A DNA stretch of 64,000 nt. Source: Rickettsia typhi. GTDB lineage: Bacteria; Pseudomonadota; Alphaproteobacteria; Rickettsiales; UBA1997. The notes under the pieces are model-generated. The model saw only the letters and a program-made list of their open reading frames with translations, searched no databases and was not told the DNA's origin. Within the stretch, counting starts at the first letter, position 1. Each line of letters starts with the position of its first letter. Made by a program: the position numbers and the translations under genes. Location: the NCBI GenBank assembly GCA_945865905.1, contig CAMBFC010000007.1:7706-71705 (forward strand), given 5' to 3'. Of the stretch, positions 4,470-63,921 are shown in pieces.

Positions 4470-4504
4470 TGGCGATCATCTTTAGGATGGTCGCCATTTT
4501 TTTT
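4470..4504 (+). terminator. Rho-independent terminator after rpoC
   Basis: Stem TGGCGATCATC/GATGGTCGCCA (one T:G), 5-nt loop, then a T8 tract; 27 nt after the rpoC stop. Confidence 0.8.
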
Positions 4505-4514
4505 GTTTCAATTT

Positions 4515-4630
4515 GTGTTTGGATCTCGATTTACAGATGAATCATCTCCTGCTTATTGATTTTATTTCGCGCGCAAGCACAGCTACATAAAATCAATAAG
4601 CAGGAGATGATTCGTCTGTAACGCACAGCG
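4515..4630 (+). repeat. Family-A hairpin repeat, copy A1
   Basis: Terminus GTGTTTGGATCTCGATTT. Hairpin 4533-4619 has 32-nt arms with one T:G, around the conserved loop ATTTCGCGCGCAAGCACAGCTACAT. Tail TAACGCACAGC. Confidence 0.9.
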
Positions 4631-8676: not shown

Positions 8677-10047
8677 TTAAATTGGAATATGAATTAAAAC
8701 CCGCAAACCCCCAAGCGCACTATCGCCAAGACGCATTCTGCCTCCATGAGAAGTTACCGCATCCATCGCAATTGCAAGACCAAGCCCAGAGCCGCCGCTA
8801 GTCTTTTGTGATTTATCAAGATTGCGTGAATTATCAATGCGATAAAAAGGTTTGAACACATTATGGCGTTCATTTTCGGGGATTCCGGGGCCATTATCAT
8901 CGATCAAAATCATCAAATTATTTTGGCTGAGTGAGGCAGAAAAAATAACTTTATCGCCATAATTAAAAGCATTATCAATTAGATTAATCAGCGCGCGCTT
9001 AAGAGCCAACTTCTTCAACAGCATTTCAAAATCAACAGGAACATTAATTCGTGTTTCAATTTCTTTATTTAAGCGCACATAATAATTGGTAATTTTTTCT
9101 AAAAATTCGTGCAAAATAGTGGGCTTGGCCTTTTCTCGCTCTTCATGTCGTGCAAAATCGAGATATTCACAAATTAGTTTTTCCATATCATTAATATCTT
9201 GCTGCAATTCTGCAACATCATCAGAATTTTTTGTCATTTCAAGTTGCAGTTTCATCCGCGTGAGAGGCGTGCGTAGGTCGTGTGACACTGCAGAAAGCAT
9301 ATCAGTTCGTTGCGAAATTTGTCGCACAATGCGTTCTTTCATTTTTATAAAAGAAATTGCCACCGAACGAATCTCGCGCGAGCCGCTAGGGCGAAAGTTT
9401 GGCACATCTTGCCCACGACCAAATTTTTCTGCCGCTTTGCTTAATAAACTAATTGGGCGCAATTGGTTTTTAAGAAAAATAATCGAAATAAATGAGGTGA
9501 TTATGGCGGTTGTTAGCATCCATAAAATAAAAACATATTTGCTTGAGCTAGTGATTCTTTTTACCGGAACATCAAATGAGAGTAGGCCGCTTTTGGTTTG
9601 CACTTTAACAATAATAGAGTTTGCATCTTCAGGATTTTTATAAATTTCGTAAGGCGTGAATTTGCGGTTTTCAAGCTCAGATTTAAAGCGATTTAATGGA
9701 TCAATCAGTGGAAATAAATTAAAATATTGATAAATTTTGCTGCGCTTCCAATCAGAATCGGCAATTTTTGATTTTTTCTTAAATTTGCGCCTTTCTTCGA
9801 ACGAAAAACTTAGATCAATATTTGTTGAAAAATCATGCAGCAAGGCTTGGCGCTCGATATTTCCTACTGAACTTTTTACAAAAGCCATTTCGGAGACAAC
9901 GCTGCGCGCCATATGTTTGCTGATCGAATCAACATAAACATAGAAAAAAACATAAGTCGTCACCATTTGCACAACCAGCGTTGGTATGGCAATTATCAGC
10001 AAAAATCGGCCGAAAAGCGAGCGCGGCAGTAGTTTTTTTAGTTTCAT
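8677..10047 (-). CDS. Two-component sensor histidine kinase, EnvZ-like
   Basis: Two TM segments, H-box AVSHDLRTPLT, N-box LINLIDNAFNYG, G-boxes DDNGPGIP and GGSGLGLAIA. Confidence 0.9.
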   Translation of the reverse strand: MKLKKLLPRSLFGRFLLIIAIPTLVVQMVTTYVFFYVYVDSISKHMARSVVSEMAFVKSSVGNIERQALLHDFSTNIDLSFSFEERRKFKKKSKIADSDWKRSKIYQYFNLFPLIDPLNRFKSELENRKFTPYEIYKNPEDANSIIVKVQTKSGLLSFDVPVKRITSSSKYVFILWMLTTAIITSFISIIFLKNQLRPISLLSKAAEKFGRGQDVPNFRPSGSREIRSVAISFIKMKERIVRQISQRTDMLSAVSHDLRTPLTRMKLQLEMTKNSDDVAELQQDINDMEKLICEYLDFARHEEREKAKPTILHEFLEKITNYYVRLNKEIETRINVPVDFEMLLKKLALKRALINLIDNAFNYGDKVIFSASLSQNNLMILIDDNGPGIPENERHNVFKPFYRIDNSRNLDKSQKTSGGSGLGLAIAMDAVTSHGGRMRLGDSALGGLRVLIHIPI

Positions 10048-10893: not shown

Positions 10894-12192
10894 ATGAAAA
10901 TTGCAGTCATTGGTACAGGATATGTTGGATTAGTTTCGGCGGTTTGCTTTGCAAAGCTAGGCCATGAGGTTGTAGGTGTTGATAAGGATGCGGCGAAAAT
11001 TTCTGATCTGCAAAAAAATATCATTCCAATTTTTGAACCGGGTTTAAAAGAGCTTTTAATCGCAGTTAAATCTGATAATAAAATCACTTTTACCACAGAT
11101 CTAAAAACCGCTTTAAATGGTGCGCAAGCAGTGTTTATCGCAGTTGGAACGCCGCAAGATGAAGATGGCAGCGCTGATTTAACCTTTGTAATGGCTGCTG
11201 CGCGTGAAATTGCGCAATTATCTGATGATTATAAAGTCATCGTCACAAAATCCACCGTGCCAGTAGGAACCGGCGCTGTTCTTGAAGGTGTAATCAAAAA
11301 AGCTAATTCACAATTGCAATTTTCTGTCGCTTCAAATCCAGAATTTTTGCGCGAAGGAAGCGCGGTTGAAGATTTTATGGCGCCAGACCGCATAGTTATT
11401 GGATCCAAAGATGATCGTGCTAAAAAAGTTTTAAGTGAAATTTATCAAAAATTTTCAGCAGAAAAAGTTATCCACACCGATATCACTACAGCCGAGATGA
11501 TTAAATATGCTTCAAATTCTTTTTTGGCGACAAAAATTTCTTTTATTAACGAGATTTCTGATCTGTGTGAAAAAACTGGCGGCGATATAAAACAGCTCGC
11601 AAGTGCCATTGGGCTTGATTCGCGCATTGGTAGCAAATTTTTAAATCCCGGTCCGGGGTTTGGAGGATCTTGTTTTCCAAAAGATATTATGGCCATTATT
11701 AATGTGGCAAAAGCAAATAATGTCGAACTGTCTCTGATCAGCTCTGTCATAGCTTCCAATGTGTCGCGCAAGAAAAAAATGGTGCAAAAAATTAGCGATG
11801 CACTTGGCGGAAATATCGCAGGAAAAAAAATCGCGTTGCTTGGCTTGGCTTTTAAAGCAAATACTGATGATATTCGTTACAGCCCTGCTATTTCTATTGC
11901 GCAGGCATTGTTAGAAAAATCAGCAAAAATTAACGCCACCGACCCAGAAGCGATAGAAAATTCGCGCAAAGAATTAGGCGATGTTGAATTTTTTGCCGAT
12001 CATTACCAAGCCATAAAAGACGCGGATTTAATCGTGATCGCAACTGAATGGAAAATTTATTCTGAGCTTGATTTTGATAAAATAAAACAGCTTACAAAAT
12101 CGCGGATTATTGTTGATTTGCGCAATCTTTTGGATTCTGCAAAGGTTGCGGCGGCGGGGTTTCAATATTTTTATATTGGTGGGAAGGTTTAG
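10894..12192 (+). CDS. ugd: UDP-glucose 6-dehydrogenase
   Basis: NAD-binding GTGYVGLV and catalytic-Cys motif GFGGSCFPKD; 432 aa. Confidence 0.9.
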   Translation: MKIAVIGTGYVGLVSAVCFAKLGHEVVGVDKDAAKISDLQKNIIPIFEPGLKELLIAVKSDNKITFTTDLKTALNGAQAVFIAVGTPQDEDGSADLTFVMAAAREIAQLSDDYKVIVTKSTVPVGTGAVLEGVIKKANSQLQFSVASNPEFLREGSAVEDFMAPDRIVIGSKDDRAKKVLSEIYQKFSAEKVIHTDITTAEMIKYASNSFLATKISFINEISDLCEKTGGDIKQLASAIGLDSRIGSKFLNPGPGFGGSCFPKDIMAIINVAKANNVELSLISSVIASNVSRKKKMVQKISDALGGNIAGKKIALLGLAFKANTDDIRYSPAISIAQALLEKSAKINATDPEAIENSRKELGDVEFFADHYQAIKDADLIVIATEWKIYSELDFDKIKQLTKSRIIVDLRNLLDSAKVAAAGFQYFYIGGKV

Positions 12193-12197
12193 AGTTT

Positions 12198-12568
12198 TAG
12201 ATCTCGTTTTACAGCTTAATTATCTGTTGAAATTGAATTTATTTATCGCAAGTAAATCATTTTATTTTGCGCGCAAGCACAGCTACATAAAATGATTTAC
12301 TTGCGATAAATAAATTCAATTTCAACAGATAATTAAGCTGTAACGCACCAATTTTGTTAGTTTGTTTTAAATATTCTGCAAAGGACTTGTTGTTAGTTTT
12401 TTGCAAAAGATTTACGCATTATTCGTAAGATAGATTGATTGTCTAATTAGGGGCTCTGAGGCGAGTTCTGCTTTTATCGCAAGCTACGCTTGCTTTAATC
12501 AGATGAAAGCGGTGTCTGAGCAGCAGAGCCCCTAATTAGACAATCAATCTATCGTGAAAACGAGATCC
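12198..12568. repeat. Composite ~370-bp repeat element: terminus, family-A hairpin A2, spacer, family-B hairpin B1 (inverted core), inverted terminus
   Basis: TAGATCTCGTTTT at 12198 and AAAACGAGATC ending at 12567 are inverted repeats. A2 hairpin 12211-12341 has perfect 54-nt arms around ATTTTGCGCGCAAGCACAGCTACAT. B1 hairpin is 12429-12553. Confidence 0.9.
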
Positions 12569-12621
12569 AAAAACACGCACCACAAAAAATAGTTAAACAT
12601 TAATAATAAGGTTAAAATTGA

Positions 12622-20431: not shown

Positions 20432-20655
20432 GTTATAAATTTTTGTGCTATTCTATATTGAGAAAATTCAGTTAATTTAGAAAGTAAGTTAATTAGAAGG
20501 AGAGGCTCTGCTGCTCAGACACCGCGTTCATCTGATTAAAGCAAGCGTAGCTTGCGATGAAACGCAGAACTTGCCTCAGAGCCTCTCCTCCTAATTAACT
20601 TACTTTCTAAATTAACTGAATTTTCTCAATATAGAATAGCACAAAAATTTATAAC
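20432..20655 (+). repeat. Family-B hairpin repeat, copy B2, with ~79-nt arms filling the lgt/queC divergent intergenic region
   Basis: Core GGCTCTGCTGCTCAGACACCGCGTTCATCTGATTAAAGCAAGCGTAGCTTGCGATGAAACGCAGAACTTGCCTCAGAGCC, flanked by inverted arms with a single mismatch. Confidence 0.92.
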
Positions 20656-25873: not shown

Positions 25874-26240
25874 TAGATCTCGTCCTCGGCAAGGCTTGAA
25901 GTGAGGGGCTCTGCTGCTCAGACACCGCACCCATCTGATTTAAGCGAGCGTAGCTCGCGATGGGATGCAGAACTCGCCTCAGAGCCCCTCACTTCAAGCC
26001 TTGCCTTTCTTGGGCTTTTGTGGGTTTTTGGCTTTTTGGGTTTGGATTTGTGCATTGATTTATCTGGTATTAATGGTTTTTACACATTATTCGTAAGATA
26101 GATTGATTGTTTGGGGAAGGGGCTCTGAGGCGACTTCTGCGCTTCATCGCAAGCTACGCTTGCTTTAATCAGATGAACTCGGTGTCTGAGCAGCAGAGCC
26201 CCTTCCCCAAACAATCAATCTATTACAAAAACGAGATCTA
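25874..26240. repeat. Composite ~367-bp repeat element: terminus, family-B hairpin B3 (+), T/G-rich spacer, family-B hairpin B4 (-), inverted terminus
   Basis: TAGATCTCGT at 25874 and ACGAGATCTA at 26231-26240 are inverted repeats. B3 is 25888-26005 with perfect 26-nt arms. B4 is 26098-26223 with perfect 30-nt arms. Confidence 0.92.
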
Positions 26241-34762: not shown

Positions 34763-34875
34763 TTTAGATTGTGCCTCACAGATAAATTATTGAGCGGAGG
34801 TCATTTTATTTCGCACGCAAGCACAGCTACATAAAACGACCTTCGCTCAATAATTTATCTGTAACGAAAAGTGCG
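34763..34875 (+). repeat. Family-A hairpin repeat, copy A3
   Basis: Degenerate terminus TTTTAGATTG. Hairpin 34778-34862 has 31-nt arms with two transition mismatches around ATTTCGCACGCAAGCACAGCTACAT. Tail TAACG. Confidence 0.88.
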
Positions 34876-34903: not shown

Positions 34904-36019
34904 ATGAAAAACCTAATAGGATTAACCAAAGAGCAACTAACGCAAGAGCTTATAAACATTGGCGAGAAGCCCTTTCGTGCCGCGCAAATTTGGAATTGGA
35001 TTTATGTTCGTGGTGTGCAAGATTTTTCTGCGATGAGCAACATTTCGAAGGCGACGCAAGAAGTTTTGGCAAAAAATTTTACCCTAGCGCGGCCCATGAT
35101 CCACAAGGATTTGCTCGCTTCTGATGGCACAAGAAAATGGCTGGTAAAATTTGCCGATGGCAATCAAGTTGAGGCAGTTTTTATTCCTGAAGAAACTCGC
35201 GGCACGCTCTGCATCTCGTCGCAAGTCGGTTGCACTTTGGCTTGCAAATTTTGTCATACTGGCACGCAAACTTTGGTGCGCAACCTTGAAGCCTCTGAAA
35301 TTGTGGGTCAAATCATGATCGCTAAAGATTTATTGGATGATTGGAAAAAAATCGGTGTTGGCGATGTAGCAGCTTCACCATCGCGGCAAAAAATCACCAA
35401 TGTAGTGTTTATGGGCATGGGCGAGCCTTTTTATAATTATGAAAATGTTGCCGCAACCGCAAAAATCCTTAATAATGCCGATGGCTTGAGTTTATCTTCG
35501 CGAAGAATCACAATTTCTACTTCGGGCTTAGTGCCAGAAATTTTACGCATGTCAAAAGAGCTAAAAACTGCTCTAGCAATATCGCTGCACGCCACGAATG
35601 ACGAGCTTAGAACCAATATTATGGCGATCAATAAAAGATACCCTCTCGATGAATTAATGAAGGCCTGCAAAATTTATAACAATGAAAATCCGGGGCAAAA
35701 AGTTACTTTTGAATATGTGTTGCTGCGCGATGTTAATGATCGCGATGAACATGCGCGCGAGCTGATTTCACTGATTAATAAATATAATTTAAATGCTAAA
35801 ATAAACCTGATTCCATTTAATCCGTGGATGTCTTGCGGCTATGAAAGATCTAGCGATGAACGCATTGCGCAATTTCAAAAAATTCTGAAAAATAGTGATG
35901 TAGTGGCGCCAATTCGCAAAACTCGTGGTGATGATGTGATGGCGGCTTGCGGTCAGTTAAAATCTGATTCGCAGCGCATTTCTAAGCGCCAAAAAAAAGA
36001 TGATGTGGTTGGTGGTTGA
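34904..36019 (+). CDS. rlmN: 23S rRNA/tRNA adenine-C2 methyltransferase RlmN (radical SAM)
   Basis: FRAAQIWNWIY N-terminus, radical-SAM cluster CTLACKFCHTG, C-terminal AACGQL. Confidence 0.93.
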   Translation: MKNLIGLTKEQLTQELINIGEKPFRAAQIWNWIYVRGVQDFSAMSNISKATQEVLAKNFTLARPMIHKDLLASDGTRKWLVKFADGNQVEAVFIPEETRGTLCISSQVGCTLACKFCHTGTQTLVRNLEASEIVGQIMIAKDLLDDWKKIGVGDVAASPSRQKITNVVFMGMGEPFYNYENVAATAKILNNADGLSLSSRRITISTSGLVPEILRMSKELKTALAISLHATNDELRTNIMAINKRYPLDELMKACKIYNNENPGQKVTFEYVLLRDVNDRDEHARELISLINKYNLNAKINLIPFNPWMSCGYERSSDERIAQFQKILKNSDVVAPIRKTRGDDVMAACGQLKSDSQRISKRQKKDDVVGG

Positions 36020-36160
36020 AAAAGATGGGGATGGGAGTTGGATTGGGATGCTCTGCTGCTCAGACACCGCGCCCATCTGATTTAAGCAAGCGTAGCTTGC
36101 GATGGGACGCAGAACTCGCCTCAGAGCATCCCAATCCAACTCCCATCCCCATCTTTTTCA
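36017..36160 (+). repeat. Family-B hairpin repeat, copy B5 (perfect 39-nt arms; left arm starts on the rlmN stop codon)
   Basis: TGAAAAAGATGGGGATGGGAGTTGGATTGGGATGCTCTG ... core ... CAGAGCATCCCAATCCAACTCCCATCCCCATCTTTTTCA. Confidence 0.92.
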
Positions 36161-36275
36161 ATTCTATTTTTTTTGGCAAAAAAATAGAAGATTAAATAAA
36201 GATTGTTATTTGCTTTTACAAATTCCTATAATTAATTTCGACTTAATAGTTATTGAATAATTAATTAAAATTTTT

Positions 36276-38198: not shown

Positions 38199-38340
38199 GG
38201 CTGAAGAGTCAGTTAGGTAATGCTTGAATGCGAGTTCCATTTTCATCGCAAGCTACGCTTGCTTTAATTCAGATGAAAAGGGTGTCTGAGCAGGCGAGTA
38301 TTACCTAACTGGCTCTTCAGCCGAGGGCAAGATCTATAGT
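38199..38340 (-). repeat. Family-B hairpin repeat, copy B6 (degenerate core) plus degenerate terminus
   Basis: Arms GGCTGAAGAGTCAGTTAGGTAATGCT/AGTATTACCTAACTGGCTCTTCAGCC (two transitions). Apical core CATCGCAAGCTACGCTTGCTTTAATTCAGATG is retained. Tail CCGAGGGCAAGATCTA. Confidence 0.8.
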
Positions 38341-39543: not shown

Positions 39544-42500
39544 TTATTTAAGTGAGTCGATATCTCTTTCGTATCTTGATGCCTCTTGCTCAGCACTTTT
39601 TTGTTCTGCTTTAAAGTCAAGTGCTTTTTGCTTGGCGGTAGAAGCAGTGCTTTCAAGATTAGAAATTTTTGCTGTAGTTGCGGCCGATGTATCTCCCGAT
39701 GCTTTTAATGACGCTATTTCAGCTTGTGCAGCTGCAGCGGCATTTTCTTGCATTTCCATATTTTGTTTTGCTCCCTTTGCCGCTCTTTCAGATTGACTTT
39801 TCATCGCACTGCGCATATTAATCAGCTGTTGATTAACGCTTTCTTTTGATCCAGATACATCTTCTGCAGTTAAAAGAACGCCACTAACGCCGCCACTTAA
39901 TCCAGCGTTACCAATAGTTAATCCGGCATTACCAACAGTTAAGCCGGCATTAGATAGTTGCATGCCAAGGCTATTTCCTCCCGCAGGAGAATCTTTGGCT
40001 TGAGCCGCTAATAGTTCTGCGCGCGCTTTTGCTTCAAAAAGGCTATTTCCATCAATATCAATCAAGCCATCTTTAACGCCAGCTTTTATTTTGCCATTAT
40101 AATCCTTCAAATCATCCCAATTATTGCTATTTAGTTTTGCCAAATGCAAAGCTTCGATTCTTTTAAGTTCAGTCGCGGCATCTTGACGCATTCTGTTGAC
40201 TACTTTTGGATCTTTTACCGACATGATGTCTTTTTCCATTTTATCCAGCATTGACTGCTTGAATAATTCGCGTTTTTGATCGAGCGATTTTAAATCTTTG
40301 TCGAGTTTTTTTTGTAATTGGCGACCGTAAAAGCTATTTTTTGGATCACCCTTACCAAGGGCATCGATTTTTGCAGAAAATACTTCATTTAATTTTTTTC
40401 TATCATCATCATAACCACCATTTTTTAGATAGTTAGAGGCGGCTTTTTCCATGCCGGCGCGGGTTTTTTCAGATAATTGTCGCGCTTTTCTTTCGCTGCC
40501 AATATCCTCTAAAAACCTAATTCTATTAAGAGGATTGAAGCCTTTGCCAGTATTAAACCCAATCGCATCAAGCCAATTATTTTTTCTATTTTCTTCATAG
40601 CCAACTTTGCGCATGAAATTTTTGCCAGTTTCGGCAGAAGCACTTTTGCCTTTTTCAAAAGCTCTTTCTTGCTTATATTGTAAAAATTTATCTTGCAATT
40701 CAGTGTTGTGAGCGAATTTTTTTGCCGCATCACTATCGGATAATTTTCCTTTTTTATTCATAAAGCCTTTTAAGTCTTTCAAATGGCCGTTGATTGATTC
40801 GGCACCGCCCATGGTTTTATCTGCCCATTTTCTTGCCGCGGCTTTTAAATGCTGTTCCATATCTTTTCCGAGAGGGATTTTTGATGGATCTCCCGCCTTT
40901 ATTCTTTTTGCTTCATCTTTTAAGAATTTTTGTAGAGGTTCTTTTTCTAGTTTTTGGGCAATGCGAGAGTCTATTTTGCTAGAGTCAAAATCATATAATG
41001 CTGCTTTTTTTGGATTATTATATTGAAAAGCCAATATTCCATCTTTGCCATTATTCATCGCAAAATTGCGCACATGTTGGTTATAGGCTAGAGTATCAGG
41101 TTTTAAGCCTTTTGATGCGGCGTCTTTTTTTCCTAGAGAAATTGCATTATCAATGACATTATCGCGCAATCTTGTGCGCACGCCGCGAACAGGAATTTTA
41201 TCGAAAACTTGATCTATTTTGCCAGAAAGGCCAGATGCTCGCGATGCTGTGCGTATAGCGCGGAAAGCTGCTCCACCACCAGTAGATAAGCCATTTTTGA
41301 GGGCGCTTCCAGCTAATCCAGCCGCACCTCCCATAGCAATTCCGGCTGTTTTCATTGCGGACGCGTTATTTCCCTCGCCATCACCGTTATTATTTGAAAC
41401 CCCACCAATCGTAATCAACTGCCCCGCCAAATCAGGAATTTTCTTGAGAATTTCCATCAAAATATAAATTAAACCAGCAAGCCCTAAGAACAGTCGAAAC
41501 CAATCCACAAGACCTCTACCGCCTACTTCTGCCCTTAAAATTCCAAAAGAAAAAAAGCCAAAATTAATACTTTCGGTACAAACGCGATAATGCAGCATCT
41601 CAAAAAACTTGCCATCAATAAACATAACGAAAGTGAAGAGAATCAAGAATAACATTACCATTTCGAGAGATCTTGCTCCAATAAATCCCAGCCAGTTTTT
41701 GAACATATCGTTGGTTTGTCCAAAAAGTGAAAAAACAATGAAGATTGGCCCTAATGCAAGCACAAAAATTAGTTTCATCAAAGTGACCGCATAAACTAGT
41801 GCCGCAAGCAACATCACATAAGCAAAGAAAAATATTAACGCATAAATTGCTGCGATATAAACGAAGCCAAAAAAGCTTTCAAAAAATAGGCCCCAAATCT
41901 TTTTTGTAACATTGGCCGAGAAAAGAGATTTTAACATTGTATCAACATAAGAAAAGCGTGAGCCTCCTCCATCTGGGTTGCTGCTTATTGATTGGGCGAT
42001 TTTTATTGGATTACTTGCCTCAATATCGTTGGTGATAAACTCAGAAAACATTGTGATCAAAACATCCATTCCATCTTTAAAAAAAGTGACAACAAATTTA
42101 TTATACCAATACCAACTATCTGGAGTTGTAAAGAATATTACTAAGGATAATTTTAGTAAGCGTGACAGAAGTTCTTTTTTAGTGATTTCAACTATTCCTA
42201 TTAGAGTGGCAAATCCAAAAAATGCGATATAAAGAGAGAGGCATACCTGCAAAGTAGAACTGAAATAGTTATCTTGCACAATGCTGCGATACATAAATTC
42301 TAGTACGCCACCTTTTTTGACGCCATTTTCATCTTTGACGCCCATCATAGAATCTTCAACTATTGAAACTAAAAATTCTAACAGGCCAGTATCGCCATCG
42401 CGACCGATTCCTTCAAGGAAGGTTACATTATATTGGCCAAAATTATCCGAATAATAGCGATCATGAATCATTAATTTTACGAACTCATTTGGTCGGTGAT

Positions 42501-43323
42501 GGGTATCGTTGCCGATATCATTGTTATTGCCATTATTGCCATCCATATCATCTTTAACAAAAATGGCATTATTGGCGCTTCTAAAAACATATTTAGTTTG
42601 GTCTATGCCATTTGCATCTTTGCATTCACCATTGGCATTTCTATTGATAGAGCAAGTCGTTTTTTCTGAAAATAAGTGATAGACTCGAATTGGCGTTTCA
42701 TTGCCACTTACACCAAAAAGCCCTAGATATAAGCCCATTCCAGCGCTGTATTTGCAGGCGCCGCTTTGTTTATCAGGTATTTTTATGGCATGATTTTTAT
42801 CGTAATAGTTAAGTGGAAAATGATAAACTCCCTCATCAGTTACTTTGCCATTAAGTTTAGTGCAACTGCATTTTGTAGAATCGTTTTGATTGATATCAGT
42901 GGAGCAATCTACGGGAAAATCTGTGCCATCTATACCTTGTTCTGGTACAGGTTCTTGATTTTTAGCGCAAATACAATTTTCATCCTTGTTTTTTTTGGAA
43001 CAAAAATTGCAAGTTGAGATGCCGCCAAGCTTAGAATCGCTTACTGCATTACCATACCAAGGAATCCAAGAGCCAGAAATGTGTAAAAGGAATGGTTTGC
43101 CATTGGCGCGAAGCCCAGTTTCATGCCATGATGCCGTTTGACCACCTTCATTGTGATTGTAGACTGTGCCGAAAATGCCGTCATTAACGGGATTGGCTTT
43201 AACTTGAACAAATTCGTTATCAAATTCATCAGCTTCAACGCAATAGTTGCCTGTGCAAGAAGCAAGTAGAATGGTCAAAAAAATCAAACTAAATAATTTA
43301 GCTAATTTTCCTTGCCAATTCAT
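39544..43323 (-). CDS. Giant polytopic membrane protein, VirB6/TrbL-like core with Cys-rich N-terminal domain and long charged C-terminal extension
   Basis: 1259 aa. Lipobox-like LLASC. Multi-TM core (res ~350-660) includes LALGPIFIVFSLFGQTNDMFKNWLGFIG, which resembles the VirB6/TrbL signature. Family assignment is by eye. Confidence 0.5.
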   Translation of the reverse strand: MNWQGKLAKLFSLIFLTILLASCTGNYCVEADEFDNEFVQVKANPVNDGIFGTVYNHNEGGQTASWHETGLRANGKPFLLHISGSWIPWYGNAVSDSKLGGISTCNFCSKKNKDENCICAKNQEPVPEQGIDGTDFPVDCSTDINQNDSTKCSCTKLNGKVTDEGVYHFPLNYYDKNHAIKIPDKQSGACKYSAGMGLYLGLFGVSGNETPIRVYHLFSEKTTCSINRNANGECKDANGIDQTKYVFRSANNAIFVKDDMDGNNGNNNDIGNDTHHRPNEFVKLMIHDRYYSDNFGQYNVTFLEGIGRDGDTGLLEFLVSIVEDSMMGVKDENGVKKGGVLEFMYRSIVQDNYFSSTLQVCLSLYIAFFGFATLIGIVEITKKELLSRLLKLSLVIFFTTPDSWYWYNKFVVTFFKDGMDVLITMFSEFITNDIEASNPIKIAQSISSNPDGGGSRFSYVDTMLKSLFSANVTKKIWGLFFESFFGFVYIAAIYALIFFFAYVMLLAALVYAVTLMKLIFVLALGPIFIVFSLFGQTNDMFKNWLGFIGARSLEMVMLFLILFTFVMFIDGKFFEMLHYRVCTESINFGFFSFGILRAEVGGRGLVDWFRLFLGLAGLIYILMEILKKIPDLAGQLITIGGVSNNNGDGEGNNASAMKTAGIAMGGAAGLAGSALKNGLSTGGGAAFRAIRTASRASGLSGKIDQVFDKIPVRGVRTRLRDNVIDNAISLGKKDAASKGLKPDTLAYNQHVRNFAMNNGKDGILAFQYNNPKKAALYDFDSSKIDSRIAQKLEKEPLQKFLKDEAKRIKAGDPSKIPLGKDMEQHLKAAARKWADKTMGGAESINGHLKDLKGFMNKKGKLSDSDAAKKFAHNTELQDKFLQYKQERAFEKGKSASAETGKNFMRKVGYEENRKNNWLDAIGFNTGKGFNPLNRIRFLEDIGSERKARQLSEKTRAGMEKAASNYLKNGGYDDDRKKLNEVFSAKIDALGKGDPKNSFYGRQLQKKLDKDLKSLDQKRELFKQSMLDKMEKDIMSVKDPKVVNRMRQDAATELKRIEALHLAKLNSNNWDDLKDYNGKIKAGVKDGLIDIDGNSLFEAKARAELLAAQAKDSPAGGNSLGMQLSNAGLTVGNAGLTIGNAGLSGGVSGVLLTAEDVSGSKESVNQQLINMRSAMKSQSERAAKGAKQNMEMQENAAAAAQAEIASLKASGDTSAATTAKISNLESTASTAKQKALDFKAEQKSAEQEASRYERDIDSLK

Positions 43324-50076: not shown

Positions 50077-50178
50077 GATAAATCATCGACTGCTTATTGA
50101 TTTTATGTAGCTGTGCTTGCGCGCGAAATAAAATCAATAAGCAGTCGATGATTTATCGTTAAAGGAGATCTAAACACA
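50077..50178 (-). repeat. Family-A hairpin repeat, copy A4 (inverted orientation)
   Basis: Hairpin 50077-50157 has perfect 29-nt arms around ATGTAGCTGTGCTTGCGCGCGAAAT. Terminus GGAGATCTAAACACA on the right. Confidence 0.9.
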
Positions 50179-54329: not shown

Positions 54330-54507
54330 GTAGAGAATTAGGTTTGAGTTATAAATTATCTCGTGAGTATGGGAGAGGAGCTCTGAGGCGAGTTCTGCGC
54401 TTCATCGCAAGCTACGCTTGCTTAAATCAGATGAACGCGGTGTCTGAGCAGCAGAGCTCCTCTCCCATACTCACGAGATAATTTATAACTAAAACCTAAT
54501 TCTCTAC
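54330..54507 (-). repeat. Family-B hairpin repeat, copy B7 (56-nt arms; right arm overlaps the last 3 codons plus stop of the downstream gene)
   Basis: Arms GTAGAGAATTAGGTTTGAGTTATAAATTATCTCGTGAGTATGGGAGAGGAGCTCTG and its complement, with one G:A mismatch. Typical inverted B core. Confidence 0.92.
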
Positions 54508-63784: not shown

Positions 63785-63921
63785 TTTTATTTAGATCTTA
63801 TGCCCTTGCTTAAGCCTGCCTTCAACAAATAATTCACCTGCTGTTTATTAATTTTATTTCGCGCGCAAGCACAGCTACATAAAATCAATAAACAGCAGGT
63901 GAATTATTTGTAACGCACAGC
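63785..63921 (+). repeat. Family-A hairpin repeat, copy A5
   Basis: Degenerate terminus TTTAGATCTTATG. Hairpin 63826-63910 has 31-nt arms with one A:C around ATTTCGCGCGCAAGCACAGCTACAT. Tail TAACGCACAGC. Confidence 0.9.

What the first reader, a model, noticed from the sequence alone, without database searches (positions are those of the whole stretch)
25874..26240. Family-B nested hairpin repeats: conserved asymmetric core, covarying inner stems, copy-specific outer arms (7 copies in 64 kb)
There are seven intergenic copies: B1 12429-12553(-), B2 20432-20655(+), B3 25888-26005(+), B4 26098-26223(-), B5 36017-36160(+), B6 38199-38322(-, degenerate), B7 54330-54507(-). All share a ~75-nt core: GCTCTG CTGCTCAGACACC GCG-NNN-ATC TGATT(T)AAA GCAAGC-GTA-GCTTGC GAT-nnn-A-CGC AGAACTCGCCT CAGAGC. 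Read as a fold, this gives a closing stem (GCTCTG/CAGAGC), a conserved non-complementary internal loop (about 13 nt opposite 11 nt), an inner stem, and an apical 6-bp hairpin with a GTA loop. The paired positions covary between copies. The inner stem is TTC:GAA (B2, B4, B7), CCC:GGG (B3, B5) or TTTTC:GAAAA (B6). GCG:CGC becomes GCA:TGC in B3. The apical stem GCAAGC:GCTTGC becomes GCGAGC:GCTCGC in B3. Outside the core each copy has its own arms of 26 to 79 nt. Most arm sequences are unrelated between copies (B1 and B4 share ATAGATTGATTGT), yet within a copy they are perfect or carry one or two mismatches. In REP/BIME, ERIC, Correia, RUP and Rickettsia RPE the whole unit is the conserved part, so a conserved centre inside variable perfect arms is not an architecture I recognise. 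Arm mismatches are mostly transitions with no consistent strand bias for G:U. A DNA-level palindrome (cruciform or ssDNA hairpin, for example a transposase or recombinase substrate) is therefore as plausible as a structured RNA.
Basis: seen in the sequence. Interest (0 to 1): 0.88.

Follow-up and report, generated by a model that had tools for sequence, protein, structure and literature searches.

The report
Nested hairpin repeats with self-growing arms
A small group of uncultured freshwater Rickettsiales carries a previously undescribed family of intergenic hairpin repeats with a conserved, structured tip, whose long perfect arms are made and kept perfect by the cell copying one arm (and neighbouring host DNA) onto the other.

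Summary
All seven copies are at the stated coordinates, and 47 distinct copies from related metagenomes show strong covariation (98.8% of cells paired; score 0.539 against 0.141 in shuffles). First, the arms are not all copy-specific: with more copies most fall into arm families with shared flanks. Second, there is a strand bias.

The "variable perfect arms" have a DNA-level cause:
- Orthologous copies differ by mirrored substitutions and a mirrored one-base indel.
- The core is flipped in one strain.
- One arm ends in an exact inverted copy of the conserved last codons of modA.
- Tip modules are swapped or lost at orthologous sites.

I read this as a lineage-specific, REP/BIME-like mosaic repeat superfamily. 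Its structured tip is conserved, and its arms arise by template switching or arm-to-arm conversion. The tip's partner and its means of spread remain unknown. There is no match in Rfam, phages, plasmids or the literature. It is a new variant of a known kind, of moderate to good interest.

The parts
12429..12553 (+). B1 hairpin. Asymmetric interior is at 12459-12523. Arms are family-A-like (GATAGATTGATTGT). It is the second member of a convergent pair with the family-A hairpin at 12209-12343.
12561..12569 (-). Flank motif TGGATCTCG belonging to B1.
20432..20655 (-). B2 hairpin, with 79-nt arms and interior at 20511-20576. It fills the divergent lgt/queC spacer. It is orthologous to copies in L026, L038 and L047. 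The core is flipped in L026.
25874..25882 (+). Flank motif TAGATCTCG belonging to B3.
25888..26005 (-). B3 hairpin, with 'type 2' arms and interior at 25914-25979. On the + strand it is followed by TTTCTTGGG. It is absent from a strain 97-98% identical (L038), and only a remnant remains in L050.
26098..26223 (+). B4 hairpin, interior at 26128-26193. It is convergent with B3. At the orthologous site in L050 the same frame holds a family-A tip instead.
26232..26240 (-). Flank motif TAGATCTCG belonging to B4.
36016..36161 (-). B5 hairpin, with 40-nt perfect 'type 3' arms and interior at 36056-36121. The arm overlaps the rlmN stop codon by 4 nt. A small A/T hairpin follows it.
38199..38322 (+). 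B6 hairpin, a degenerate 'type 2' sub-family (closing stem GCTCGA/GCGAGT). It lies between convergent genes (a beta-lactamase-fold gene and dnaJ).
38328..38336 (-). Flank motif TAGATCTTG belonging to B6.
54330..54507 (+). B7 hairpin, with 56-nt arms and interior at 54386-54451. It fills the convergent SDR/modA spacer.
54496..54507 (-). Last three codons plus the stop codon of modA (GTAGAGAATTAG = V E N *). They form the outermost 12 nt of one B7 arm.
54330..54341 (+). Exact inverted copy of the modA 3' end. It forms the outermost 12 nt of the other B7 arm, 11 nt after the SDR stop codon.
4531..4621 (+). Family-A hairpin. It has the same frame (TGGATCTCG ... CTGTAACGCAC) but a different conserved tip (TTTCGC GCGCAAGCACA GCTACA).
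12209..12343 (+). Family-A hairpin with 62-nt arms. It is the first member of the convergent pair with B1.
34778..34862 (+). Family-A hairpin. Its orthologue in L046 keeps the base and the tip, but the middle of both arms is completely different.
50077..50157 (-). Family-A hairpin.
63825..63911 (+). Family-A hairpin.

Best explanation
Family B belongs to a lineage-specific superfamily of non-coding, mosaic hairpin repeats. These are REP/BIME-like or MITE-like intergenic palindromes found in a narrow clade of freshwater Rickettsiales.

Each element has three layers:
1. An optional asymmetric frame: TTTAGATCTCG on one side and a short motif on the other.
2. Long arms.
3. A conserved tip module, either the ~66-78-nt B core or the ~30-nt A tip.

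Shown:
- The B core is a real structure with covarying stems. Its sequence asymmetry is strand-specific.
- The long perfect arms are not transposon ends or guides. They are produced and homogenised in place by DNA-level copying of one arm onto the other. The likely processes are replication template switching between inverted repeats, or conversion within the palindrome.
- This copying mirrors substitutions and indels, sometimes flips the core, and extends the palindrome outward into adjacent host DNA, including the 3' end of a gene.
- Tips and arm segments are exchanged or lost between copies and at orthologous sites.

Inferred:
- The invariant loops of the core survive this symmetrising process because the core is under selection as a single-stranded fold (RNA or ssDNA) recognised by some factor, or because its stable fold is what seeds the template switching.
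- Whole units spread to new intergenic sites by an unidentified route.
- Any benefit to the host, such as acting as a 3'-end hairpin or terminator, is secondary.
For: Structure:
- 47 distinct copies give 98.8% paired cells; 25 of 40 pairs change on both sides; covariation 0.539 against 0.141, with 0 of 500 shuffles reaching it.

Strand asymmetry:
- Arm mismatches are 22 A.C against 0 G.T on the written strand.
- Over all stems, 33 G.U against 4 A.C on the complement, plus two fixed wobble columns.
- Family A shows the same trend, 8 against 2.
- The complement is more stable in 46 of 47 copies, by 7.0 kcal/mol on average. The same holds with DNA parameters.

Arm copying:
- B2 in the window and its orthologue L026 differ by 4 substitutions and a 1-nt indel, all mirrored on both arms; only 1 change is not mirrored.
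- The core is inverted in L026 relative to the window and L047, with the flanks collinear.
- The outer 12 nt of the B7 arm are the modA codons V-E-N-stop. This C-terminus is conserved in more than 30 homologues. The other arm ends in their exact inverted copy.
- In L051 the synonymous change GTA>GTG is mirrored in the copy.
- A second hairpin (L009) overlaps the stop codons of both convergent genes.
- Homogenisation of inverted-repeat arms and inversion of the spacer are the published signatures of template switching (PMC8604942, PMC5941160, PMC8794818).

Mosaic structure and turnover:
- Arm families with shared flanks exist, and the B core occurs inside family-A arms.
- At the B4 site a relative has an A tip in the same frame. 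B3 is deleted in one strain and reduced to a remnant in another.
- The orthologue of the family-A copy at 34778 has replaced arm middles.
- There is a half-converted stem in L038 and a chimera in L009.
- A 'mini-B' tip occurs in a more distant relative.

Distribution:
- The family is found only in close relatives.
- Nearly every long hairpin in loci of this clade is type A or B.
Against: - No transposition event was caught. The one presence/absence polymorphism (B3) turned out to be a deletion, so mobility is inferred only from dispersed sub-families with the same arms.
- The cause of the strand asymmetry is unresolved. Copies show no orientation bias relative to flanking genes (11 sense, 11 antisense singles). 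No consistent sigma-70 site is present. The T-rich, terminator-like tail lies on the other strand (4.47 against 1.13 T in 10 nt). An RNA from the better-folding strand therefore has no obvious source.
- A strand-specific C>T mutation process would give the same mismatch pattern (polarity at B2 and B6).
- The test of whether the B2 arm derives from ancestral local sequence was not significant.
- All data come from metagenome assemblies, which break at these repeats.
Confidence: 0.6

Rival explanations
1. The elements are REP/RAYT-type ssDNA elements. The B core, the A tip or the frame motif would be strand-specific hairpin substrates of a HUH (Y1) transposase or another hairpin-specific recombinase encoded once elsewhere in the genome. 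That enzyme would spread and maintain the elements.
For: - The elements are extragenic, high-density imperfect palindromes.
- All 11 two-element spacers hold an inverted doublet in the same arrangement ('+ then -'), often of two different types, as in BIMEs and REPINs (PMC3116915).
- A conserved short motif lies 4-8 nt from the hairpin foot, on a fixed side, in 17 of 18 copies.
- The wobble pattern is strand-specific and independent of host gene orientation, as expected for an ssDNA substrate.
- No terminal inverted repeats or target-site duplications were seen.
- REPINs also show compensatory changes and insert next to or into one another.
Against: - No Y1 transposase turned up in about 430 kb around the elements, but the query was a sequence recalled from memory, so this is a weak test.
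- In REPs and REPINs the conserved part is in the arms and the centre varies. Here it is the reverse.
- There is no GTAG-like foot.
- The core (66-78 nt) is much larger than a REP.
- No excision or insertion event was seen.
Confidence: 0.2
2. The core is a functional structured RNA transcribed from the better-folding strand. It could be a protein-binding module, an RNase III-type processing signal or a self-cleaving ribozyme. The arms would then simply be its extended closing helix, kept paired by selection on the RNA.
For: - The pattern is the classic RNA signature: invariant loops, covarying stems, fixed U.G wobbles (26:77 in 47 of 47 copies; 29:74 alternating U.G and C:G), tandem G.A pairs, and G.U tolerated while A.C is not.
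- The fold is 7 kcal/mol better on one strand.
- The loops stay asymmetric despite arm homogenisation.
Against: - No Rfam family matches even at E<=10, apart from generic long-hairpin miRNA models scoring below their thresholds.
- There is no promoter signal.
- Half of the single copies lie antisense to both neighbouring genes.
- Mirrored indels, a flipped core and copied coding sequence show that arm pairing is maintained at the DNA level, not by RNA selection.
- The loops never vary, so there is no covariation to support tertiary contacts.
Confidence: 0.15
3. The elements are host intrinsic terminators or 3'-end stabilisers that evolve in place. The conserved tip would be a by-product of gene conversion among them.
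For: - On the written strand many copies are followed by a T-rich tail: TTTCTT in type 2, TTCTATTTTT in type 3. 16 of 47 have at least 6 T in 10 nt, against 1 of 47 on the other strand.
- Only one locus lies in a divergent spacer; 10 lie between convergent genes.
- Convergent pairs would stop transcription arriving from both sides.
- Hairpins abut or overlap stop codons.
Against: - Single copies show no orientation preference relative to the upstream gene (11 against 11).
- The consensus scan calls none of B3, B4 or B1 a terminator.
- The mismatches are A.C, which destabilise the helix, on exactly the strand that has the T tail.
- A classical terminator already stands upstream of the family-A copy at 4531.
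- Invariant 11- and 13-nt loops are not needed for termination.
Confidence: 0.1
4. The elements are ordinary MITEs: the arms are terminal inverted repeats of a non-autonomous DDE transposon.
For: Sub-families with the same arms occur at different loci, for example the six copies with GATAAATCAcCTACTGCTTATTGAC-TAGGAAGAGG arms.
Against: - Arms differ between most copies, and many are unique and resemble host intergenic sequence.
- One arm contains copied coding sequence.
- No target-site duplication was seen, and the flanks are asymmetric.
- The conserved part is central, not terminal.
Confidence: 0.05

Closest known systems
REP / BIME / REPIN elements with their RAYT (Y1 HUH) transposases
   Same: - Both are high-density extragenic imperfect palindromes.
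- Both form inverted doublets, sometimes of different types.
- Both form long hairpins with compensatory changes.
- Both cluster by insertion next to or into one another.
- Both are strand-specific and lack terminal inverted repeats and target-site duplications.
   Different: In REPINs the conserved REPs lie in the arms and the centre varies. Here the centre is conserved and the arms vary. The core is 66-78 nt and has internal loops. There is no GTAG foot. No RAYT was found, although that test was weak.
Quasipalindrome correction, i.e. template-switch mutation at inverted repeats (PMC8794818, PMC5941160, PMC8604942)
   Same: Mirrored substitutions and indels, inversion of the spacer, and creation or extension of perfect stems are all seen here.
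   Different: This is a mutational process, not an element family. Here it acts repeatedly around a conserved dispersed tip, on arms of up to 81 nt, and reaches into gene ends. The tip itself escapes being made symmetric.
RNA-hairpin-forming MITE-like repeats (Correia/NEMIS, ERIC, RUP, BOX; from my own knowledge)
   Same: These are also non-coding intergenic repeats of 100-250 nt that fold into long hairpins when transcribed, and they have mosaic or modular variants.
   Different: In those families the whole unit, especially its ends, is conserved between copies. They have terminal inverted repeats and usually target-site duplications. None has locus-specific arms made from host sequence.
Integron attC sites (from my own knowledge)
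   Same: Both are site-specific palindromes whose sequence varies between copies. In both, the structure and the strand-defining asymmetries matter as ssDNA.
   Different: attC sites keep conserved boxes at the base and a variable centre. They lie in co-oriented cassette arrays next to an intI gene. None of this is seen here.
Rickettsia palindromic elements (RPE; from my own knowledge)
   Same: Both are dispersed palindromic repeats in the Rickettsiales with an unknown means of spread.
   Different: RPEs are conserved along their whole length and often insert in frame into genes. All copies here are intergenic. The sequence relationship was not tested.

Membership tests
REP/BIME/REPIN-RAYT | Abundant extragenic imperfect palindromes | tested here: met
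   The 64-kb window holds 7 B and 5 A copies, all intergenic. The grouped B and A elements in the window and related loci occupy 48 intergenic spacers, none inside a called gene.
REP/BIME/REPIN-RAYT | Units commonly arranged as inverted doublets | tested here: met
   All 11 spacers holding two elements have the '+ then -' arrangement, with types mixed.
REP/BIME/REPIN-RAYT | The conserved unit is a 20-40-nt palindrome with a conserved tetranucleotide at its 5' foot; the centre of a REPIN varies | tested here: not met
   The conserved part is the 66-78-nt centre and the arms vary. A 9-nt motif, TAGATCTCG, lies 4-8 nt from the foot on a fixed side in 17 of 18 copies, but it is not GTAG-like.
REP/BIME/REPIN-RAYT | A cognate single-copy RAYT gene flanked by the repeats | not testable with these tools
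   Only about 430 kb around the elements is held. A tblastn search with an IS200 TnpA sequence recalled from memory found nothing, which is a weak negative.
Classical MITE | Terminal inverted repeats conserved between copies, and a target-site duplication | tested here: not met
   Arms differ between most copies and the flanks are asymmetric. The only polymorphic site is a deletion without a clean duplication.
Classical MITE | A related autonomous IS with the same ends | not testable with these tools
   No whole genome is available. The only transposase seen (IS1595, in L043) is in a genome that lacks the elements.
Any Rfam RNA family | Reaches the family's gathering score | tested here: not met
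   Only two tRNAs pass in the window. At E<=10 only generic miRNA-hairpin models appear, and they score far below their thresholds.
Intrinsic terminator | Stable hairpin followed by a U tract, oriented with the upstream gene | tested here: inconclusive
   A T-rich tail is present on the written strand in 16 of 47 copies. Single copies are 11 sense and 11 antisense, and the scan calls none of them.
Integron attC | Conserved R/L boxes at the base, variable centre, co-oriented array beside intI | tested here: not met
   The pattern of conservation is the reverse, the copies are dispersed in both orientations, and the neighbours are housekeeping genes.
Template-switch (quasipalindrome) dynamics | Changes mirrored on both arms in one step, including indels; inversion of the spacer | tested here: met
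   Four substitutions and one indel are mirrored between the window and L026. The core is flipped between the same two loci. A synonymous change in modA is mirrored in its inverted copy.
Rickettsia palindromic elements | Sequence similarity to RPE families; frequent in-frame insertion in genes | not tested
   No RPE sequences were at hand. All copies here are intergenic.

The most novel reading that the evidence does not exclude
The B core is the active part of a new kind of selfish element: a strand-specific 'seed hairpin'. On this reading it invades the tips of existing hairpins and then drives progressive palindrome formation in the neighbouring host DNA. It could act by itself, through fold-back priming, or through an unknown protein that recognises hairpin tips. 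The result would be self-extending, locus-specific palindromes that can overwrite promoters and gene ends.
Probability: 0.2. Interest if true: 0.85.

Novelty: new variant of a known kind. Interest (0 to 1): 0.58.

Why it matters
- It provides a natural multi-copy system for studying template switching at inverted repeats, a process so far studied mostly with reporters or inferred in rRNA. Here the process can be seen creating, extending, homogenising and flipping hairpins of up to 224 nt. It reaches into coding 3' ends and fills a divergent promoter region.
- It defines an undescribed structured module with a clear strand polarity in streamlined, uncultured Rickettsiales. That module is a concrete target when searching for its partner, whether a transposase, an RNA-binding protein or a nuclease.
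- On the practical side, these repeats break short-read assemblies of this clade.

Tried and rejected
- **Rfam:** searches at gathering score and at E<=10 gave nothing relevant.
- **Phages and plasmids:** blastn found no match.
- **Literature:** a full-text search for the core sequences gave only chance hits.
- **Spacer-like arms:** I tested whether the arms are captured sequences that match other genomic DNA. There are no hits outside the elements.
- **Own promoter:** the sigma-70 scan found no consistent site in either orientation.
- **Local origin of the B2 arm:** the element-free lgt-queC spacer of a relative (L049) showed no significant similarity to the arm (score 20 against a shuffle mean of 16.5 and maximum of 26).
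- **B3 as a recent insertion:** rejected, because L050 keeps a remnant, so its absence in L038 is a deletion.
- **Wobble bias from misincorporation during fold-back synthesis:** rejected. The derived base is on different arms in B2 and B6, and the direction of copying at B7 is the opposite of what this model predicts.
- **Replication-strand explanation:** rejected, because both orientations are mixed within 64 kb.
- **'Type 3 arms always start at a stop codon':** not supported beyond B5.
- **Y1 transposase:** a tblastn search found nothing, but the query was recalled from memory.
Full report
**1. The observation**

The repeat finder reports arms of 79, 56, 40, 30, 30 and 26 nt at 98-100% complementarity, and 33 nt at 85% for B6. 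Each pair of arms encloses 58-66 nt of non-palindromic interior. The apical hairpin pattern occurs 13 times (seven copies read on both strands) against 1.9 expected. All copies lie between open reading frames. These encode ordinary housekeeping proteins: UDP-glucose dehydrogenase, Lgt, QueC, PdhB, RlmN, DnaJ and an SDR. The window is 37.7% G+C.

**2. Where the element occurs**

- An exact-pattern scan of one genome per species found the core only in the MAG 'Rickettsiales bacterium Baikal-deep-G64', plus two chance hits.
- The metagenome scan added 26 true loci, mostly from one freshwater sample.
- Proteins in the window are identical to those on ENA lake-metagenome contigs, and those contigs break at the repeats.
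- A profile search of everything fetched gave 47 distinct copies. These include copies in the related MAG GCA_947492445.1.
- Relatives whose neighbouring serine hydrolase is about 62-66% identical have no copy in roughly 43 kb. One of them carries a different hairpin repeat.
- Nothing matches in Rfam, phage or plasmid records, or the literature when searched by sequence.

**3. Structure and strand**

The covariation score is 0.539, against 0.141 in column shuffles (0 of 500 reach it) and at most 0.123 when partners are slid. The closing stem covaries too: GCTCTG/CAGAGC becomes GGTCTG/CAGACC, GCGCTG/CAGCGC or CCCCG/CGGGG.

- In the arms, every transition mismatch is A.C on the written strand, and so G.U on R: 22 against 0.
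- Over all stems the count is 33 G.U against 4 A.C on R, not counting two fixed wobble columns. One is U26.G77 in all 47 copies. The other is U29.G74 in 39 copies and C:G in 8.
- Family A shows the same trend, 8 against 2.
- R folds better than the written strand in 46 of 47 cores, by 7.0 kcal/mol on average. The same holds with DNA parameters, -19.3 against -16.7.
- On R, much of the '13 opposite 11 nt loop' is helical. It contains five Watson-Crick pairs, two wobbles and a tandem A.G/G.A that becomes Watson-Crick in variant copies.

**4. The arms are not simply copy-specific**

With about 45 copies the arms sort into families.
- **Type 1.** Arms resemble those of a second hairpin family, A (GATAAATCAcCTACTGCTTATTGA...). 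These copies have TTTGTGTTTAGATCTCG on one flank and CTTACGAATAAT on the other.
- **Type 2.** Arms read cctcGGCTGAAGAGC..., with TAGATCTCGTCCTC on one flank and TTTCTT on the other.
- **Type 3.** Arms read TTGAAAAAGATG..., followed by a small A/T hairpin.
- **Unique.** The remainder have unique, AT-rich arms that resemble ordinary intergenic sequence (B2, B7 and others).

Family A has five copies in the window. It has the same frame and the same design, with a conserved tip (TTTCGC-GCGCAAGCACA-GCTACA) and variable arm middles. The B core occurs inside complete A-type frames (L004, L007, L013, L031, L036, L037). The flank motif precedes the tip in a fixed orientation in 17 of 18 cases. Nearly every long hairpin in loci of this clade is type A or B.

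**5. How the arms stay perfect: orthologous comparisons**

- **B2** lies between lgt and queC in the window, in L026 (92.7% identical), in L038 and in GCA_947492445.1. Between the window and L026 the 79-nt arms differ by four substitutions and a one-base indel. All five differences are mirrored on the other arm, and only one change is unmirrored. A mirrored indel is not what slow compensatory selection produces; it points to templated copying.
- **Core flip.** At the same locus the core is inverted in L026 relative to the window and L047, although the flanks are collinear. Homogenisation of inverted-repeat arms and inversion of the spacer are the published hallmarks of polymerase template switching between inverted repeats (PMC8604942 and PMC5941160 abstracts, PMC8794818).
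- **B7.** The outermost 12 nt of one arm are GTAGAGAATTAG, the last three codons and stop of modA. The C-terminus ...GFIVE(N) is conserved in more than 30 homologues down to about 55% identity, so this sequence is ancestral. The other arm ends, 11 nt after the SDR gene, in its exact inverted copy. This arm was therefore extended by inverted duplication of host DNA.
- **The modA site in a relative.** In the relative with 93% identical ModA, the codon is GTG and the inverted copy reads ...CCAC, so a synonymous change is mirrored. The core has been lost there, and only the distal arm remains.
- **A second case.** Another hairpin (L009) overlaps the stop codons of both convergent genes.
- **Spacers are filled.** The hairpins nearly fill their spacers: B2 takes 224 of 240 nt, and the B7 hairpin (178 nt) spans nearly all of a 177-nt spacer and runs 12 nt into modA.

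**6. Turnover and mosaicism**

- B3 is absent from a strain 97-98% identical (L038). The more distant L050 keeps its flank motif and the first 12 nt of its arm, so the absence is a deletion, not a new insertion in the window.
- At the B4 site, with conserved flanks, the window and L038 have a B core, while L050 has a family-A tip.
- At the site of the family-A copy at 34778, the window and L046 share the base and the tip. The middle 15-17 nt of both arms are entirely different, even though the flanking genes are about 90% identical.
- The B4 copy in L038 has one side of its inner stem converted to another variant.
- L009 carries a chimera of type-3 and type-2 arms.
- A relative with 81% identical ModA has a 'mini-B'. 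It has the same loop sequences (GAGTTC...TGTCTGAG) and the same flank (GAGGACGAGATCTAG), but a GGCGCGCC tip replaces the inner stem and apical hairpin. The B core is therefore itself nested.

**7. Context**

- Single copies in co-directional spacers are 11 sense and 11 antisense.
- Only one locus lies in a divergent spacer, and 10 lie between convergent genes.
- All 11 spacers holding two elements have the same arrangement, '+ then -', with the flank motifs facing outward. The types are mixed (A+B-, B+B-, B+A-). This recalls BIMEs and REPINs.
- The 10 nt after the hairpin are T-rich on the written strand (4.47 T on average) and T-poor on R (1.13). The counts with at least 6 T are 16 against 1.
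- No consistent sigma-70-like site or terminator call accompanies the elements.
- No arm matches other DNA in the roughly 430 kb held, and no Y1 transposase was detected there, although that test was weak.

**8. Interpretation**

*Shown:* the core is a real, strand-asymmetric structure. The arms are generated, extended and kept perfect by copying one arm onto the other at the DNA level. Cores flip. Tips and arm segments are exchanged or lost.

*Inferred:* the invariant asymmetric loops persist in all 47 copies despite a process that tends to make palindromes symmetric. So the core is under selection, or is continually re-homogenised, as a single-stranded fold of the R strand. Its stable fold may itself promote the template switching. 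Whole units have spread, as shown by sub-families with the same arms at different loci, but by an unknown route.

*Unresolved:* I could not establish why the wobble asymmetry points to R. R has no evident promoter and no orientation preference, and the terminator-like tail sits on the other strand. A strand-specific C>T process would give the same pattern: at B2 and B6 the derived bases are G>A on the written strand, on different arms. A fold-back misincorporation model does not fit these polarities.

**9. Comparison with known systems, and verdict**

The closest known systems are REP/BIME/REPIN elements. They share the extragenic location, the inverted doublets, the compensatory hairpins, nesting, strand specificity and the lack of terminal repeats or target duplications. 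However, their pattern of conservation is the reverse, and no RAYT could be tested for here. The process acting on the arms is the known template-switch, or quasipalindrome, mechanism. The elements are not classical MITEs, attC sites or members of any Rfam family.

I rate the finding a new variant of a known kind. The novel part is the combination of a conserved structured tip with host-derived, self-extending, concertedly evolving arms and nested modules.

Noticed in passing
window 4531-4621, 12209-12343, 34778-34862, 50077-50157, 63825-63911: A second hairpin family ('A') has an 11-nt spacer and a conserved tip, TTTCGC-GCGCAAGCACA-GCTACA. Its arm middles are variable but self-complementary. 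It shares the TAGATCTCG / CTGTAACGCAC frame with many B copies. At an orthologous site in L046 its arm middles are completely replaced.
   Followed up: partly
window 20432-20655: The B2 palindrome occupies 224 of the 240 nt between the divergent start codons of lgt and queC. Both genes must therefore be driven from mirror-image copies of the same sequence. The relative L049 has an unrelated 138-nt spacer there.
   Followed up: partly
window 12276/12488 and 25951/26158; L003, L004, L015, L027, L028, L029, L034, L036, L039: Whenever two elements share a spacer they are convergent, with the flank motifs outward. This holds in 11 of 11 cases, even when the two are of different types. I found no explanation.
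   Followed up: partly
L042:3291-3390, 9814-9889, 11720-11817: A more distant relative has its own, unrelated hairpin repeat (AGTCATGCTGAGCCTGTCGAAGCATGA..., with a 12-20-nt spacer), present three times in 21.7 kb.
   Followed up: no
L049:8255-8324: Another relative (GCA_965076175.1) carries a palindrome, TTGTCATTCTCGCGAAGGCGGGAAT, with a 12-nt spacer downstream of the pdhA region. It may be yet another repeat family.
   Followed up: no
L053:3330-3450: A 'mini-B' hairpin carries the B loop sequences and the type-2 flank but has a GGCGCGCC tip in place of the inner stem and apical hairpin. Only one copy is in the DNA held.
   Followed up: partly
L005:3863-3910 and L018 near 1820-1860: There is a tandem duplication of the left arm plus the first ~12 nt of the B core (…GGGGCGCTGCTGCTCAGAC repeated) beside an intact copy. 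This looks like a slippage product.
   Followed up: no
window 36162-36195 and the equivalent positions in L002, L017, L020, L029, L033, L034: A small A/T hairpin, TCTATTTTTTTGG(C)AAAAAAATAGA, regularly follows type-3 B copies.
   Followed up: no
window 39544-43323: This is a 1259-aa TrbL/VirB6-family protein next to dnaJ, typical of Rickettsiales type IV secretion loci. In one ENA assembly (L011) the same gene is called in three pieces (756, 303 and 194 aa), and the alignment of L011 to the window is interrupted at that point.
   Followed up: no
window 4471-4503: A classical intrinsic terminator (GGCGATCATCTTTAGGATGGTCGCC followed by T8) stands just upstream of the family-A hairpin. That hairpin is therefore not needed to terminate the upstream gene.
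   Followed up: no
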